Source: Candidatus Saccharimonadota bacterium
GTDB taxonomy: Bacteria; Patescibacteriota; Saccharimonadia; Saccharimonadales; Saccharimonadaceae
Length of the DNA stretch: 64,000 nt
Direction of reading: 5' to 3'
Assembly: GCA_028288995.1 (NCBI GenBank)
Contig: JAQGHF010000004.1
Coordinates: forward strand, 57,204 to 121,203
The notes beneath the pieces are model-generated. The model was not told where the DNA came from. It saw only the letters and a program-made list of their open reading frames with translations, and made no database searches. Each line of letters opens with the position of its first letter. Within the stretch, counting starts at the first letter, position 1. Made by a program: the position numbers and the translations under genes. Below are positions 24,715 through 32,093 of the stretch, piece by piece.

Positions 24715-26226
24715 TTAGTCAAATTTGATGTCGGGGTAGATTCCCTTTGTCACTTCGTCGTATTCGTAACGAAGTTGCGGGAACGGCACACCTTCGCGCG
24801 CGGTTACCCCTTCGAAGATCCAGAACACACGTTCACTATATCCCCAACCTACGGCTGGTGGCATACCGTATTCGAGCATTTCGATAAAGTCGATATCGAG
24901 CATCATCGCCTCATCGTCACCGCTATCACGCATCCCTTGTTGCTCTTTAAAGCGGTTCAGCTGGTCGATTGGGTCGTTTAACTCGGAGAATCCATTACCA
25001 AGTTCAGATCCAGCAATCACCGGTTGGAAACGCTGCACAACGTCGGCGTTGTTTGGATCAGTTTTCGCAAGCGGACTAATAAAGGTTGGTGTATTGACCA
25101 GCCAAACAGGTCCCGCGACGCCTTTACGAATATTCTTCCAAAGTTTATCGATACCGCGAGCACGATTTTCGGTCTTCTCTACTTCTAGTTTGTTGTCAGC
25201 GAGCGCTTTCTTCACGTCATCAAGAGATGATTCGAACACATCAATGCCGTATCGCTCTTTAATAACGGTTGCGTAGTCCCACACTTCCCATTCTTTACCC
25301 ATGTTGACGTCAAACTCGCCAAGCTTAAATTGCAGTGTTCCAAACGTCTTTTGCAGCACGTCTTTATACATTGCCTCCATGAAGTTTTTGCCATCCTGCC
25401 AGTTGGCGTACGCCCAGTACCACTCCATTGCAACGTGCTCTGGAAGGTGTTCATCACTATAGTTTTCGTTTCTGAAACGCGCACCGATATCATAGACTTT
25501 TTCAAAACCTGCGCCGATAAGACGTTTTAAGGGAAGTTCGTGACTAATACGTAGGTAAAAATCTTGATCCAAAGCGTCCATGTGCGTCACAAACGGAGTC
25601 GCATCGGCACCACCAGTGGTGTGTTCGAGGACTGGAACATTCACTTCAATAAAATCATTGTCATTAAGGAAATCACGAGTTGCTTGCCAGAACTTGCTAC
25701 GGCGCACAAAACGATCACGCACGTCCTGATTGACGTTCATGTCGATATAACGACGGCGCATGCGCTCTTCTTTGTTTGTAAAGCCTTCCTGTGCGCTTGG
25801 CATTGGACGAAGTGACTTTGTCAGCAAGCGAAGTTCTTTCACAAAGACAGATACTTCACCGGTTTTGCTCTTCCCTACTGATCCAACGGCTTCAATAAAG
25901 TCACCTGTATCAAGTAGCGGAAGGTCTTCAATGCCAAGACGGTTTGACTCCACATCACGCGGTTCAACCTCAGCTTCGTTGAGGTAAAGCTGCACTTGAC
26001 CGCTAAAGTCTTTGACAACAATAAATGCGAGCTTACCGAATTTACGAATCGCTAGGATACGCCCTGCAACCGTCACCGTTTGATTCTCGAGCGCATCGAA
26101 ATCAGAAATAACTACACCCGCATTGTGCGTGCGATGTGAATCAGCCGGATAAGGATTAAATCCAATAGTTTTTAGGTCTTCGAGTTTGCGAAGCCGTTCG
26201 TCGCGGAAGTCTTTTAGTGTTGCCAT
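24715..26226 (-). CDS. lysS: Lysine--tRNA ligase (class II)
   Basis: VAGRI..IRKFGK, GGADATPFVTH, LRISHELPLKRL, FRNE, ELGNGFSELNDP, GMPP. Confidence 0.97.
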   Translation of the reverse strand: MATLKDFRDERLRKLEDLKTIGFNPYPADSHRTHNAGVVISDFDALENQTVTVAGRILAIRKFGKLAFIVVKDFSGQVQLYLNEAEVEPRDVESNRLGIEDLPLLDTGDFIEAVGSVGKSKTGEVSVFVKELRLLTKSLRPMPSAQEGFTNKEERMRRRYIDMNVNQDVRDRFVRRSKFWQATRDFLNDNDFIEVNVPVLEHTTGGADATPFVTHMDALDQDFYLRISHELPLKRLIGAGFEKVYDIGARFRNENYSDEHLPEHVAMEWYWAYANWQDGKNFMEAMYKDVLQKTFGTLQFKLGEFDVNMGKEWEVWDYATVIKERYGIDVFESSLDDVKKALADNKLEVEKTENRARGIDKLWKNIRKGVAGPVWLVNTPTFISPLAKTDPNNADVVQRFQPVIAGSELGNGFSELNDPIDQLNRFKEQQGMRDSGDDEAMMLDIDFIEMLEYGMPPAVGWGYSERVFWIFEGVTAREGVPFPQLRYEYDEVTKGIYPDIKFD

Positions 26227-26247
26227 ATCAGTAGTAAGTATATCAAA

Positions 26248-27651
26248 TTAATTAATCTTTAACTTCGAAATGCCAAAGATCGTTTTGATTAATGCTTTCT
26301 TCTTTTGAATGGGCAGCTGGCCTTTGATAGTTATCTTGTCATGAATAGTTGGCAAATTCGTCGAATGATATGCCTTGCGAAGCCGCTCATAAGCCTTTTT
26401 GTCATACATTGACCAAAACTCTTGTTCAGTAAAGTATGAGTACGCATATGACCACTTTTTTCCTTCCAACTGCAATACGCGCTGCTCGATGGCTCGATTC
26501 TTCTCGACGAATTCGCCATAGTTCGTAATCCCGGCACCCCAGACACCAACATTAATAATCGACGTCGTCTTGAGATTGTTCAATTGAAATGTTGCTTTGG
26601 TATCAACCAACATTGGGCAGAGCCATAGTGGATACGTGTGCAATTCTTGATCGACAAACTGACAAAATTTCACGAAATTTTTTGCTGGCAGTACAAGATC
26701 TTGCACAATGTGCTGTTGCGACTGTCCGCTTTCTTGTAATGCTTGATACAGTTTTCGAGTGTTTAATAATGGATTAAGTATGAACCGTGTCACTCGGTTG
26801 TATGGAACCTTAAACATCGAGAAAGCAAACCGTCCTACCCAAAACGCACCACGATCATAGCGAAACAGATAGTCCTCAAGCGGCACAGTTTCTTTCCAAC
26901 CCTTCACATGTGTCAAAACGGATGACTCAACATGCAAGTAATACCATTGATCGCGTGCACGGTGGAACTTTACTATAGTGCCAACCGCCCTATTGCTTAG
27001 AACCCCTTTAATAATGACGCCCCTGTCTTTTGAGAACATGATGCCATCGATAAAATCGTTTGTCTTATTGCGACTGAGCGATTCGATAACTTTTTTTGCT
27101 TCGCTAAAGTTGTGAACAACGACGTATTCAAGTACCACGTACTTCTTTGCAGGAATGAGTTGCAATTCCGCGACCGTCAGGATACCCAGCGTTCCTGCAG
27201 TACCAGGGACACCATAAAATAGATCGGGGTGTTTGTCTGTGGCTGTCTGTAGAACTTCACCATTGCCTGTAATGATTTCATGCGACGTGACTGTTTGATT
27301 AAAAGCACCCCATTTGAACGAGCTGCTCTCACCACCATTCCCTTGAATTGCGCCACCAACCGTAATACCCGGAAATTCCATAACAACAGGTGGGATAAGA
27401 CCACGCCGTAGTGTCGCCCGAACTAACTTGTCCATCGAAACGTTTGGCTCAACGTGCGCGAGGCGTTTCTTCACATCGATAGCGAGAATGCTGTGTAAGT
27501 CCGAGATATCAACGAACTCATTCTTTTTAAACTGCAGGACACGTGTAGAGTTCGTGCTGCCATGAAATACTCTAAAAGGCGTTTTGCTTTTAGAAAACGC
27601 GGCGATTTGTGCTGAGATACGAGCTACTTTGGCTGCGTGTATATCATCCAT
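26248..27651 (-). CDS. FAD-linked oxidoreductase, Delta(24)-sterol reductase (DHCR24/DWF1)-like
   Basis: VEPNVSM, PVVMEFPGITVGG, YLFRYDRGAFW, IVQDLVLP, YPLWLCP, NVGVWG, GKKWSYAYSYF. Confidence 0.8.
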   Translation of the reverse strand: MDDIHAAKVARISAQIAAFSKSKTPFRVFHGSTNSTRVLQFKKNEFVDISDLHSILAIDVKKRLAHVEPNVSMDKLVRATLRRGLIPPVVMEFPGITVGGAIQGNGGESSSFKWGAFNQTVTSHEIITGNGEVLQTATDKHPDLFYGVPGTAGTLGILTVAELQLIPAKKYVVLEYVVVHNFSEAKKVIESLSRNKTNDFIDGIMFSKDRGVIIKGVLSNRAVGTIVKFHRARDQWYYLHVESSVLTHVKGWKETVPLEDYLFRYDRGAFWVGRFAFSMFKVPYNRVTRFILNPLLNTRKLYQALQESGQSQQHIVQDLVLPAKNFVKFCQFVDQELHTYPLWLCPMLVDTKATFQLNNLKTTSIINVGVWGAGITNYGEFVEKNRAIEQRVLQLEGKKWSYAYSYFTEQEFWSMYDKKAYERLRKAYHSTNLPTIHDKITIKGQLPIQKKKALIKTIFGISKLKIN

Positions 27652-27676
27652 AGAGCTTATTTTAACAGAGATAGGT

Positions 27677-28132
27677 CTAGTTAATTTCAGCGATCTTATA
27701 GGTCACGCTACCCTTAGGTGTCGTGATAGTTGCGTCGTCACCGACTTTTTTGCCAAAAAGCGCTTCACCAATTGGTGATTCGTTGCTGATCTTACCCTCA
27801 AGTGGGTTAGCTTCAACAGGACCGACAATTGTATAAGTTACTGTTTTGCCGTCAGTTGTTAGTTCAACTTTGCTTCCAAGGTCGATAATCGTCTTGCGAC
27901 CACCCTTGATGATGTCCGCATTATTGATAATGTCTTCAATTTCAGCAATTCGAGTTTCAAGAAGACCCTGCTCTTCACGGGCGGCGTCGTATTCAGCGTT
28001 TTCGCTAAGGTCACCAAAGTCACGAGCTTCAGCAATCTTGTCAGCAACATCGCCACGACGTGACTTTAAAGCAGCCAACTCGATCTCGAGTTCCTTTTTT
28101 CCTTCAGCAGTGATTTGATAATGTTTCTTCAT
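27677..28132 (-). CDS. greA: Transcription elongation factor GreA
   Basis: EARDFGDLSENAEYDAA, ISNESPIGEAL. Confidence 0.97.
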   Translation of the reverse strand: MKKHYQITAEGKKELEIELAALKSRRGDVADKIAEARDFGDLSENAEYDAAREEQGLLETRIAEIEDIINNADIIKGGRKTIIDLGSKVELTTDGKTVTYTIVGPVEANPLEGKISNESPIGEALFGKKVGDDATITTPKGSVTYKIAEIN

Positions 28133-31373: not shown

Positions 31374-32093
31374 TTATGATCCGAAGCGCCGTTGCCGACG
31401 CGAATATTCCTTTATTATAGCGGTGACATCATCTTTTGTCATTTCTGGCCACATCTTATCGAGAAAAATAATTTCACTATACGCTGCGCGCCATAACATA
31501 AAGTTACTGAGTCGCATCTCACCACTGGTACGAACGATTAAGTCCATCGGTGGCACATCGGGCAGGTAGAGATTTTCAGCGATCAATTCTGATGTCACGT
31601 CTTCTTCTTTTGCGCCGCTATGAACAATTTTCTTGACCGCATCGACGATTTCTTGTTGCCCACCATAATTAAAACAGAGTGCAAAGACACCGCCAGTATT
31701 ACTCTTCGTCGCCTCTTCGGCAGCAGCCATTGCTTTGACAATCTTTGGATCGACACCAACCCGAGACCCAATAATACGAAGCTGCACGTTATATTTGTTA
31801 AACAACGGTACGTCAGCAGTCACTACTTTTAGGGTCAGGGTCATCAAGCGTTTCACTTCATCGGCACTTCGTTTCCAATTTTCTGTCGAGAATACGTAGG
31901 CAGACATATATTCAGCGCCCGCTTCAAGCGTCGCGATGCCAACATCTTTTAAGGCGTTATATCCCGCAAGGTGACCTTCGTAAACCGGCAGTCCGTGTTT
32001 TTTCGCCCAACGACGATTACCATCGACGATATAGCCCACGTGACGTGGAATTGCTGGCCCTTCAACGGGAACATCAGCGCGATCTTGTGGCAT
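31374..32093 (-). CDS. uppS: Undecaprenyl diphosphate synthase
   Basis: HVGYIVDGNRRWA, FSTENWKR, RTSGEMRLSNF. Confidence 0.96.
   Translation of the reverse strand: MPQDRADVPVEGPAIPRHVGYIVDGNRRWAKKHGLPVYEGHLAGYNALKDVGIATLEAGAEYMSAYVFSTENWKRSADEVKRLMTLTLKVVTADVPLFNKYNVQLRIIGSRVGVDPKIVKAMAAAEEATKSNTGGVFALCFNYGGQQEIVDAVKKIVHSGAKEEDVTSELIAENLYLPDVPPMDLIVRTSGEMRLSNFMLWRAAYSEIIFLDKMWPEMTKDDVTAIIKEYSRRQRRFGS

What the first reader, a model, noticed from the sequence alone, without database searches (positions are those of the whole stretch)
26248..27651. Sterol Delta(24)-reductase-like flavoprotein inserted between greA and lysS
Seen: beyond the FAD-binding PCMH domain, the C-terminal motifs (YLFRYDRGAFWVG, TRKLYQAL, IVQDLVLP, PLWLCP, NVGVWG, NRAIE...GKKWSYAYSYFTEQEFWSMYD...LRKAY..LPTIHDK) follow DHCR24/DWF1. 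From memory they look closer to fungal homologs than to generic bacterial FAD oxidases. Established: CPR generally lack lipid biosynthesis. Inference: horizontal acquisition and possible remodelling of scavenged sterols or other lipids.
Basis: partly seen in the sequence, partly recalled or inferred. Interest (0 to 1): 0.65.

Follow-up and report, generated by a model that had tools for sequence, protein, structure and literature searches.

The report
Anchor-less DHCR24/BfaA-family reductase of CPR bacteria
A soil Saccharibacterium encodes a full-length relative of the cholesterol-pathway enzyme DHCR24, but it is an old gene shared across these tiny symbiotic bacteria, probably passed from them to filamentous fungi rather than the reverse, and its substrate is more likely a non-sterol lipid such as a polyprenyl carrier.

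Summary
The 467-aa ORF sits at 26248-27651 (-), every quoted motif is present, and it aligns end to end with human DHCR24 (30% identity, E 1e-69). It lacks the N-terminal membrane anchor.

- **Age:** the gene is not a recent acquisition. Relatives occur in many Patescibacteria/CPR classes and some Woesearchaeota. Composition and codon usage are native, and the junctions are real.
- **Position:** greA-X-lysS is confined to relatives of at least 76% identity. Elsewhere the same gene sits in other places.
- **Direction:** in ML trees the fungal clade is sister to Saccharimonadales inside the CPR radiation (100/99). A tree holding CPR together without fungi is rejected (p-AU 0.031). This favours an ancient CPR-to-fungus transfer.
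- **Function:** animal DHCR24 and actinobacterial BfaA, which reduces 10-methylene acyl chains, both fall outside this clade. Sterol reduction is unlikely.

My best guess, still inferred, is NADPH/FAD reduction of the omega-end isoprene units of polyprenyl-phosphate carriers. One clean operon (X-UppS-polyprenyl synthase) supports it. So does the match between the fungal clade and the fungi that make omega-saturated dolichols.

The parts
26248..27651 (-). Gene X: 467-aa anchor-less flavoprotein of the DHCR24/DWF1/BfaA family (stop codon at 26248-26250)
   Evidence: ORF. Aligns end to end with human DHCR24, 30% identity, E 1e-69, and with M. smegmatis BfaA, 28% identity, E 7e-53. AF2 model pLDDT 91, pTM 0.90.
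27244..27636 (-). FAD-binding PCMH domain (residues 6-136)
   Evidence: Pfam PF01565 FAD_binding_4, E 2.8e-17. PDB sequence hits to cytokinin oxidases and DprE1 are limited to this region. Universally conserved here: R37, T97, G99, G100, G104, E108, S111, G115, G131.
26329..27054 (-). C-terminal cap/substrate domain carrying the DHCR24/BfaA signature motifs (about residues 200-441)
   Evidence: No Pfam model matches it, but it aligns with DHCR24 and BfaA. Y261, R264, F270, W271, D318, P341, P346, G369, E389, G397, Y402 and F412 are conserved in Saccharimonadales, other CPR, fungi, animal DHCR24 and BfaA.
26251..26328 (-). Basic C-terminal tail (residues 442-467, IKGQLPIQKKKALIKTIFGISKLKIN), a possible amphipathic membrane-association helix
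   Evidence: Sequence. A helix is predicted at 450-458, with pLDDT about 80. The protein has no transmembrane segment: maximum 19-residue hydropathy is 1.36, against 2.0 in the animal N-terminal anchor. The membrane role is inferred.
27677..28132 (-). greA, the upstream neighbour (25-nt gap)
   Evidence: Pfam GreA_GreB_N and GreA_GreB. No terminator or promoter signal above chance at the junction.
24715..26226 (-). lysS, the downstream neighbour (21-nt gap)
   Evidence: Pfam tRNA-synt_2 and tRNA_anti-codon.
31374..32093 (-). uppS (cis-prenyltransferase), four genes upstream in the same co-directional string uppS-rseP-Rce1-proS-greA-X-lysS
   Evidence: ORF. The orthologous gene in the syntenic loci L004 and L086 is Pfam Prenyltransf. 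This is weak contextual evidence only, because uppS-rseP-proS is a common housekeeping block.

Best explanation
Gene X encodes a soluble or peripherally membrane-associated two-domain VAO/PCMH flavoenzyme. It belongs to the family that contains animal DHCR24, plant DWF1 and actinobacterial BfaA. It is one member of a large uncharacterised subfamily that is ancient and widespread in Patescibacteria/CPR and in some DPANN archaea. A Pezizomycotina-wide fungal clade is sister to the Saccharimonadales clade within that subfamily, which points to an ancient CPR-to-fungus transfer. In this narrow Saccharimonadales lineage the gene has been relocated between greA and lysS and is probably co-transcribed with them.

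By analogy with the assayed relatives, it should use NADPH-reduced FAD to saturate a C=C bond at a branched (tertiary) carbon of a lipid. The most likely substrate is the omega-end isoprene unit or units of the polyprenyl-phosphate glycan carrier. That group has the same chemistry as the sterol delta24(25) bond. Shown here: family membership, distribution, phylogeny, native composition, variable position and real junctions. Inferred: the chemistry. Speculative, roughly one chance in three: the polyprenyl substrate.
For: **Family membership**
- End-to-end homology to DHCR24 and to BfaA.
- 27 residues are conserved across all five groups, including twelve in the C-terminal domain.
- The AF2 model is confident. 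The closest solved folds are DprE1 and cytokinin oxidases, matched over the full length.

**Old in CPR**
- 3805 hits; every organism name given among the top 120 is Saccharibacteria or Patescibacteria.
- 227 species genomes carry a relative; the best 80 come from more than 12 CPR classes plus Woesearchaeota.
- Composition is native and there are no flanking repeats.

**Position is lineage-specific**.

**Phylogeny** (LG+C20 PMSF, bootstrap/SH-aLRT)
- CPR+DPANN+fungi 98/91; Saccharimonadales+fungi 100/99; fungi 100/100.
- Animal DHCR24 and BfaA fall outside.
- CPR held together without fungi is rejected, p-AU 0.031.

**Chemistry**: BfaA is NADPH-dependent and reduces 10-methylene acyl chains (PMC7791843).

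**Polyprenyl lead**
- The Levyibacteriota operon is X, then UppS after 54 bp, then a polyprenyl synthase after 6 bp.
- Single cases of a Bac_transf, DAG-kinase-like, GT2 or PAP2 neighbour.
- Polyprenyl-phosphate carriers are a lipid class shared by bacteria, archaea and fungi (my own knowledge).
- Filamentous ascomycetes, but not S. cerevisiae, make dolichols saturated at the omega end, and that paper names no enzyme (PMC6628320).
- The fungal clade is Pezizomycotina-wide, and Aspergillus and Neurospora carry an extra DHCR24 homolog (PMC2817430).
Against: - Gene context is mostly uninformative. Among 138 immediate neighbours there are 154 Pfam families, and the commonest are histidine kinases (7) and EamA transporters (4). 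The polyprenyl link rests on one operon and a few single cases.
- I found no lipid data for CPR polyprenols.
- I could not verify that the Aspergillus, Neurospora or Trichoderma homologs belong to this particular fungal clade.
- The AU test is only moderately significant, and I defined the group after seeing the tree.
- Most of the 55 clusters in the 'fungal' clade are unnamed metagenome proteins. Only 4 of those 55 clusters were looked up by name, plus about 30 named Pezizomycotina relatives of one of them.
- Many VAO-family enzymes are oxidases, so a reductase direction is inferred, not shown.
- The whole genome could not be searched for sterol, Cfa-type or isoprenoid genes, because the genome search was shut (notice).
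Confidence: 0.55

Rival explanations
1. One reading: a sterol delta24-reductase acquired horizontally from a fungus or other eukaryote, used to remodel scavenged sterols such as desmosterol-type intermediates.
For: Full-length homology to DHCR24. JGI and UniProt automatic names say 'delta24-sterol reductase'. The nearest non-CPR relatives are fungal. CPR bacteria scavenge lipids (established knowledge).
Against: - The clade is separate from animal DHCR24.
- There is no N-terminal anchor.
- The gene is old and widespread in CPR and in Woesearchaeota from soil and groundwater.
- Fungi nest inside CPR, not the reverse.
- Composition is native.
- No sterol genes are linked to it in the window or in any of 83 loci.
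- Pezizomycotina use the unrelated ERG4 for their own sterol reduction (PMC2817430).
- A family member, BfaA, has a non-sterol substrate.
Confidence: 0.05
2. A BfaA-like enzyme that saturates methylene-branched or otherwise branched alkenes on the acyl chains of host-derived phospholipids. Hosts of Saccharibacteria are often Actinobacteria that make 10-methyl fatty acids.
For: 28% identity to BfaA over the full length, E 7e-53. Like BfaA, the protein lacks a membrane anchor and has the same size. BfaA acts on phospholipid-bound chains with NADPH (PMC7791843). A GDSL lipase lies nearby in two Saccharibacteria loci.
Against: - BfaA always sits in an operon with the BfaB methyltransferase (PMC7791843 Table S1). 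No Cfa/BfaB-type gene lies in the window or in 84 of 85 loci.
- The BfaA clade lies outside the CPR+fungal clade on a long branch.
- The reading does not explain presence in archaea and in fungi.
Confidence: 0.12
3. A reductase of some other isoprenoid with a terminal isopropylidene group, scavenged from or shared with the host. Examples: a menaquinone side chain, a carotenoid, squalene or a hopanoid precursor, or archaeal prenyl lipids in DPANN.
For: The chemical logic is the same as for the preferred reading. There is a sub-threshold lycopene-cyclase-like neighbour in L077 (23.3 bits against a cut-off of 27). An unverified earlier scan note proposes isoprenoid or quinone saturation for a Marine Group III archaeal relative.
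Against: No quinone, carotenoid or squalene genes recur near the gene. CPR and DPANN generally lack respiratory quinones (established knowledge, not tested here). No single such lipid is common to CPR, DPANN and Pezizomycotina.
Confidence: 0.15
4. An oxidase or dehydrogenase rather than a reductase, for example a DprE1-like oxidation of a lipid-linked sugar or another alcohol or amine substrate.
For: The best NCBIfam and PDB matches are DprE1 and cytokinin oxidases. Most VAO/PCMH enzymes are oxidases (PMC9602106, citing Ewing et al. 2017). An SDR sits directly upstream in L085, the DprE1/DprE2 pairing logic. An unverified earlier scan note places a look-alike in a CPR polyprenyl-phosphate-pentose operon.
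Against: The DprE1 match scores 57 bits against a cut-off of 500 and covers only the FAD domain. The C-terminal domain and its conserved residues are those of DHCR24 and BfaA, both reductases. Structural identity to DprE1 is only 15-19%.
Confidence: 0.1

Closest known systems
Animal DHCR24 (seladin-1) and plant DWF1/DIMINUTO, delta24-sterol reductase, EC 1.3.1.72, KEGG K09828
   Same: Same two-domain architecture and end-to-end homology (30% identity, E 1e-69). The FAD-domain glycines and the C-terminal residues Y261, R264, W271, D318, P341/P346 (PxWLCP), Y402 and F412 are shared. From memory, Y402 aligns with human Y471 and R37 with human R103, both sites of desmosterolosis mutations.
   Different: There is no N-terminal transmembrane anchor. 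It forms a separate, well-supported clade. It has no sterol-pathway context. The hosts are CPR bacteria that are not known to hold sterols. Twelve positions are fixed differently from animals and/or BfaA, for example F263 where animals have H and G268 where animals have S.
BfaA (M. tuberculosis Rv3719; T. curvata enzyme assayed), NADPH-dependent FAD reductase of 10-methylene acyl chains in tuberculostearic acid synthesis (PMC5660069, PMC7791843)
   Same: Bacterial, about 465 aa, without an anchor. Full-length homology (28% identity, E 7e-53). Same conserved core residues. It shows that this family works on non-sterol membrane lipids.
   Different: BfaA is always paired with the BfaB methyltransferase, and here no such partner is linked. 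BfaA is a distant clade on a long branch.
Pezizomycotina 'Delta(24)-sterol reductase' homologs (automatic names; for example Exophiala dermatitidis, Aureobasidium pullulans), uncharacterised
   Same: These are the closest non-CPR relatives: 43-47% identity, sister clade at 100/99. They also lack the N-terminal anchor, and the N-terminal motif VARISAQIAAF...HGSTNSTR is nearly identical.
   Different: They are eukaryotic nuclear genes on megabase-scale contigs, 490-560 aa with extensions. No function has been tested in either group.
DprE1 (decaprenylphosphoryl-beta-D-ribose oxidase) and cytokinin oxidases, the nearest solved structures
   Same: Same VAO/PCMH two-domain fold over the full length, TM 0.6-0.7. 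Both act on substrates that carry an isoprenoid group.
   Different: Only 15-19% identity. Sequence similarity is limited to the FAD domain. They are oxidases with different cap-domain residues.

Membership tests
VAO/PCMH flavoprotein superfamily | FAD_binding_4 (PCMH-type) domain | tested here: met
   PF01565, E 2.8e-17, 63 bits against a cut-off of 26.4, residues 6-136.
VAO/PCMH flavoprotein superfamily | Two-domain fold: FAD domain plus cap/substrate domain | tested here: met
   AF2 pLDDT 91, pTM 0.90. Foldseek gives full-length matches to DprE1 and CKX, E about 1e-20, TM 0.6-0.7.
DHCR24/DWF1/BfaA family (KEGG K09828-type) | Homology over the whole length, including the C-terminal domain that Pfam does not model | tested here: met
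   Query 4-441 aligns to human 66-511, E 1e-69. Query 5-428 aligns to BfaA 12-449, E 7e-53.
DHCR24/DWF1/BfaA family (KEGG K09828-type) | Conserved core residues shared by assayed members | tested here: met
   27 residues are at least 90% conserved and identical in Saccharimonadales, other CPR, fungi, animal DHCR24 and BfaA.
Sterol delta24-reductase proper (DHCR24/DWF1 orthologue, EC 1.3.1.72) | Branches with animal or plant DHCR24/DWF1 | tested here: not met
   Animals form a separate 100/100 clade outside the 98/91 CPR+DPANN+fungal clade. Plant DWF1 was not included.
Sterol delta24-reductase proper (DHCR24/DWF1 orthologue, EC 1.3.1.72) | N-terminal transmembrane anchor (ER membrane) | tested here: not met
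   Maximum 19-residue hydropathy is 1.36 with no N-terminal extension. Animal DHCR24 reaches 2.0 at residues 5-50.
Sterol delta24-reductase proper (DHCR24/DWF1 orthologue, EC 1.3.1.72) | Linked or co-occurring sterol synthesis or uptake genes | tested here: inconclusive
   None among the neighbours in the window or in 83 loci. The whole genome could not be searched because the genome search was shut.
Sterol delta24-reductase proper (DHCR24/DWF1 orthologue, EC 1.3.1.72) | NADPH-dependent reduction of the sterol delta24 bond | not testable with these tools
   Needs an enzyme assay or complementation.
BfaA (10-methylene acyl-chain reductase) | Operon with the Cfa-like methyltransferase BfaB | tested here: not met
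   tblastn with BfaB and E. coli Cfa found no hit in the window or in 84 of 85 loci. The one hit is a short generic methyltransferase-domain match in L044.
BfaA (10-methylene acyl-chain reductase) | Branches with actinobacterial BfaA | tested here: not met
   BfaA is a 100/100 clade on a branch of length 1.34, outside all the other sequences.
DprE1 (NCBIfam NF053785) | Score above the equivalog cut-off over the full length | tested here: not met
   57 bits against a cut-off of 500, and only residues 46-171 match.

The most novel reading that the evidence does not exclude
One enzyme subfamily saturates the omega-end isoprene units of polyprenyl-phosphate glycan carriers in CPR bacteria and DPANN archaea. 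An ancient transfer from a Saccharibacteria-like CPR bacterium to the ancestor of Pezizomycotina gave filamentous fungi the enzyme, so far unidentified in the papers I could search, that makes their unusual poly-saturated dolichols. I found no report of a gene transfer from CPR bacteria to a eukaryote, so this would also be a new kind of case.
Probability: 0.22. Interest if true: 0.8.

Novelty: new variant of a known kind. Interest (0 to 1): 0.55.

Why it matters
- **CPR lipid biology:** CPR bacteria and DPANN archaea are thought to do almost no lipid chemistry of their own. A conserved lipid-type C=C reductase found across many of their classes marks a lipid-tailoring step these reduced symbionts have kept, and it is a simple target for expression and assay.
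- **Annotation:** the gene is auto-annotated 'delta24-sterol reductase' in thousands of metagenome proteins. That name is probably wrong for this clade and could lead to false inferences of sterol metabolism in CPR.
- **Gene transfer:** the sister relationship with a Pezizomycotina-wide clade suggests an ancient interdomain transfer out of the CPR.
- **An open question made testable:** it offers a concrete candidate for the enzyme that saturates the omega end of dolichols in filamentous fungi.

Tried and rejected
- **Operon partners.** BLAST clustering of 1077 neighbour ORFs and Pfam profiling of 138 immediate neighbours found no dominant partner. Only a two-component system (about 14 of 83 loci) and an ABC ATPase (12 of 83) recur, probably through shared synteny. 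I dropped the planned far-neighbour control as unnecessary.
- **BfaB/Cfa partner.** Searched by tblastn: absent.
- **Signs of recent transfer.** GC, GC3 and codon usage, flanking repeats and promoter or terminator signals showed nothing.
- **RNA genes.** Rfam and tRNA scans of the window gave no hits.
- **PDB by sequence.** Only the FAD domain matches. The fold search also returned no DHCR24 or BfaA structure.
- **Literature.** Nothing on Saccharibacteria, Patescibacteria or CPR together with DHCR24 or sterol reductase. Nothing on CPR-to-Pezizomycotina transfer. No enzyme is named for omega-end dolichol saturation.
- **Not available.** The supplementary DHCR24 tree of PMC2817430 is not held. 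Whole-genome searches for oxidosqualene cyclase, Cfa or isoprenoid genes were impossible because the genome search and the fetch from genomes were shut.
- **Rejected as unsafe to use.** MAG labels such as Gammaproteobacteria, Propionibacteriales, Spirochaetaceae, Pristimantibacillus and Acidoferrum are not good evidence for non-CPR hosts. These sequences nest among CPR sequences, several are on short contigs, and mis-binning or mislabelling is likely.
Full report
**Observation.** It lies 25 nt downstream of greA and 21 nt upstream of lysS, inside a co-directional string uppS-rseP-Rce1-proS-greA-X-lysS-ABC-FtsX. Every quoted motif is in the translation. Pfam sees only the N-terminal FAD_binding_4 domain, residues 6-136, E 2.8e-17. 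NCBIfam and the PDB sequence search likewise match only that domain, to DprE1 and cytokinin oxidases. The C-terminal half is nevertheless homologous to DHCR24. Against human DHCR24 the alignment runs from query residue 4 to 441 and human residue 66 to 511, with 30% identity and E 1e-69. I wrote the human sequence from memory as a probe; the real mammalian database entries it retrieved were 95-97% identical to it. The roughly 55-residue N-terminal membrane anchor of DHCR24 is missing, and the protein has no predicted transmembrane segment. The AlphaFold2 model is confident, pLDDT 91 and pTM 0.90. Its closest solved folds are full-length matches to DprE1 and cytokinin oxidases at 15-19% identity, and the PDB search returned no DHCR24-type structure.

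**The junctions are real and the gene looks native.** An independently assembled 73-kb contig from a soil-metagenome run covers 25900-28000 without a single difference. The same greA-X-lysS order is present on two unrelated metagenome contigs whose X proteins are 76% identical to this one. GC (0.437), GC3 (0.457) and codon-usage distance (0.040) fall within the range of the housekeeping neighbours. No direct or inverted repeats flank the gene. No promoter or terminator signal exceeds the shuffled expectation.

**Distribution.** The family is very large.
- The word-indexed search returned 3805 hits. The top 120 are full-length proteins of about 466 aa at 49-79% identity. Every organism name given is Saccharibacteria, Saccharimonadales or Patescibacteria, and JGI's automatic name is 'delta24-sterol reductase'.
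- The exhaustive search of 1.84 billion cluster representatives gave 4377 hits, 602 of them below 1e-30.
- A scan of one genome per prokaryotic species found 227 genomes with a relative. The best 80 are almost all CPR: Saccharibacteria, Daviesbacteria, Levybacteria, Doudnabacteria, Kaiserbacteria, Nomurabacteria, Magasanikbacteria, Liptonbacteria, Berkelbacteria, Parcubacteria/Paceibacterota and Minisyncoccia. At least two are Woesearchaeota, and a few are MAGs with odd labels, on mostly short contigs, that nest among CPR sequences.

This is an old CPR (and DPANN) gene, not a one-off insertion.

**Position.** The position between greA and lysS is shared only by relatives of at least 76% identity (window, L004, L086). 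Elsewhere the neighbours differ:
- at 75% identity, a DUF218 gene and a CtpB-like peptidase gene;
- at 66-68%, NUDIX and pheS, or Ham1 and EamA;
- further out, PAP2, GDSL lipase or two-component systems.

So 'inserted between greA and lysS' describes a lineage-specific relocation of a resident gene.

**Relationship to fungi.** The nearest named clusters outside CPR are from Aureobasidium, Aplosporella, Exophiala and Plectosphaerella. They are 43-47% identical to the query, against 28-32% for animal DHCR24. A search with the Exophiala protein shows that the fungal group spans Pezizomycotina: Chaetothyriales, Dothideomycetes, Leotiomycetes, Orbiliomycetes, Lecanoromycetes and Sordariomycetes. 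These are genes on megabase-scale contigs, so they are not contamination.

The direction of transfer is the opposite of what was inferred. FastTree, IQ-TREE LG+G4 and IQ-TREE LG+C20+F+G4 (PMSF) trees all agree, whether rooted on animal DHCR24 or on BfaA. They give a CPR+DPANN+fungal clade (98/91), and within it the main Saccharimonadales clade, which holds the query, is sister to a monophyletic fungal clade (100/99; fungi 100/100). Diverse other CPR and Woesearchaeota branch outside that pair. Forcing the CPR/DPANN sequences into one group without fungi costs 23.9 log-likelihood units and is rejected (p-AU 0.031). That is moderate evidence, because I defined the group after seeing the tree. 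The most economical reading is one ancient transfer from a Saccharibacteria-like CPR lineage to an ancestor of Pezizomycotina.

**What the family does.** Two kinds of member with experimental evidence were compared here.
- DHCR24 reduces the sterol delta24(25) bond with NADPH (summarised in PMC9602106).
- BfaA of actinomycetes reduces the 10-methylene group on phospholipid-bound acyl chains to 10-methyl. It uses NADPH and not NADH (PMC7791843 and PMC5660069).

Using the BfaA sequences printed in the supplement of PMC7791843, the window protein is 28% identical to M. smegmatis BfaA over its full length, E 7e-53. Twenty-seven residues are conserved and identical in Saccharimonadales, other CPR, fungi, animal DHCR24 and BfaA. 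Twelve of them lie in the C-terminal domain: Y261, R264, F270, W271, D318, P341, P346, G369, E389, G397, Y402 and F412. I therefore infer the same chemistry: NADPH-reduced FAD delivering hydride to a C=C at a branched carbon. Both assayed enzymes lie outside the CPR+fungal clade, so neither substrate can simply be transferred to this protein.

**Which substrate.**
- *Sterols are unlikely.* The clade is separate from DHCR24, there is no anchor and no linked sterol genes. The gene occurs in archaea and across soil and groundwater CPR. Pezizomycotina already use the unrelated ERG4 for their own sterol reduction (PMC2817430).
- *A BfaA-type role is unlikely.* BfaA always sits in an operon with the BfaB methyltransferase, and no Cfa/BfaB-type gene lies in the window or in 84 of 85 loci.
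- *Gene context is mostly silent.* The 138 immediate neighbours fall into 154 Pfam families with no dominant partner.
- *One locus is clear.* In a Levyibacteriota genome X is followed 54 bp later by UppS and 6 bp after that by a trans-polyprenyl diphosphate synthase. Single cases elsewhere put X beside a polyprenyl-phosphate sugar transferase and a DAG-kinase-like lipid kinase, a GT2 and a PAP2 phosphatase.

Polyprenyl-phosphate glycan carriers are a lipid class common to bacteria, archaea and fungi. Their omega-terminal isoprene unit has the same chemistry as the sterol delta24(25) bond (my own knowledge). Filamentous ascomycetes (A. fumigatus, A. niger, A. nidulans, T. reesei, N. crassa), but not S. 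cerevisiae, make dolichols with extra saturated units at the omega end (PMC6628320). Neither that paper nor a 2026 review names the enzyme. Desmond and Gribaldo noted that Aspergillus and Neurospora carry an extra DHCR24 homolog outside the canonical fungal pathway. These pieces fit a polyprenyl omega-end reductase. The fit is circumstantial, and I rate it at about one in three.

**Comparison and novelty.** The protein is a member of the VAO/PCMH superfamily and of the DHCR24/DWF1/BfaA family. It is not an orthologue of DHCR24 or of BfaA, and it fails the DprE1 model by a wide margin: 57 bits against a cut-off of 500. I found no paper that links CPR bacteria to this family or reports a CPR-to-fungus transfer. 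It is an AI note and not independent evidence. I class the finding as a new variant of a known kind: an uncharacterised, mainly CPR/DPANN subfamily with a fungal offshoot, probably with its own substrate.

**Limits.**
- The genome search and the fetch from genomes were shut, so I could not test the whole genome for sterol, Cfa-type or isoprenoid genes.
- Most members of the 'fungal' clade and of the deeper branches are unnamed metagenome proteins.
- Plant DWF1 was not in the trees.
- The reductase direction, the membrane role of the basic C-terminal tail and the substrate are all inferred.

Noticed in passing
L058 6001-7329 and L063 6001-7323 (both from OY969576.1, a 1.9-Mb 'uncultured bacterium' chromosome): Two nearly identical copies of the flavoprotein gene lie 1.2 Mb apart in one genome. 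Each is preceded by a Replic_Relax (replication-relaxation) gene, which suggests that in some CPR the gene rides on a repeated mobile or integrative element, a possible vehicle for its spread.
   Followed up: partly
L054 5989-9280 (Candidatus Levyibacteriota, JACOXU010000001.1): A tight three-gene operon: the DHCR24-like flavoprotein, then UppS (cis-prenyltransferase), then a trans-polyprenyl diphosphate synthase, with gaps of 54 and 6 bp. This is the clearest functional context found for the family.
   Followed up: partly
P0121, P0128, P0139, P0140, P0168 (metagenome proteins of 888-916 aa): Proteins about twice the normal length match the query in two stretches. They may carry two tandem DHCR24-like modules or be fusions. 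Origin and meaning are unknown.
   Followed up: no
L064 (Propionibacteriales MAG), L049/L069/L071 ('Gammaproteobacteria' MAGs), L076 (Spirochaetaceae MAG), L020, L037: CPR-type copies of the gene sit on contigs, several of them short, that are binned or labelled as non-CPR organisms. This is probably mis-binning or mislabelling. The Propionibacteriales case could reflect co-binning of a Saccharibacteria epibiont with its actinobacterial host.
   Followed up: no
window 27652-27676: The 25-nt greA-X spacer has no Shine-Dalgarno sequence but holds a TAAAAT hexamer ending 7 nt before the ATG. That is compatible with a -10-only promoter and a leaderless mRNA, as another first-reader note on this genome suggests. 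The consensus promoter scan did not flag it.
   Followed up: partly
window 1-64000: No tRNA gene and no Rfam family reach threshold anywhere in the 64 kb.
   Followed up: no
P0227 (Legionella busanensis, WP_115330483.1) and P0236 (Syssomonas multiformis transcriptome): A Legionella protein branches deep in the family, near the root between BfaA and DHCR24. A sequence from a protist transcriptome falls at the base of the CPR+fungal clade and may come from prey or a contaminant.
   Followed up: no
L014 3205-4056, L015, L017, L089 2731-3582, L003 8354-9304: An EamA/DMT-family transporter gene lies directly or nearly directly downstream of the flavoprotein gene in several Saccharimonadales loci (4 of the 138 immediate neighbours, plus L003 at the second gene downstream). 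It could be a recurring partner or just shared synteny.
   Followed up: partly
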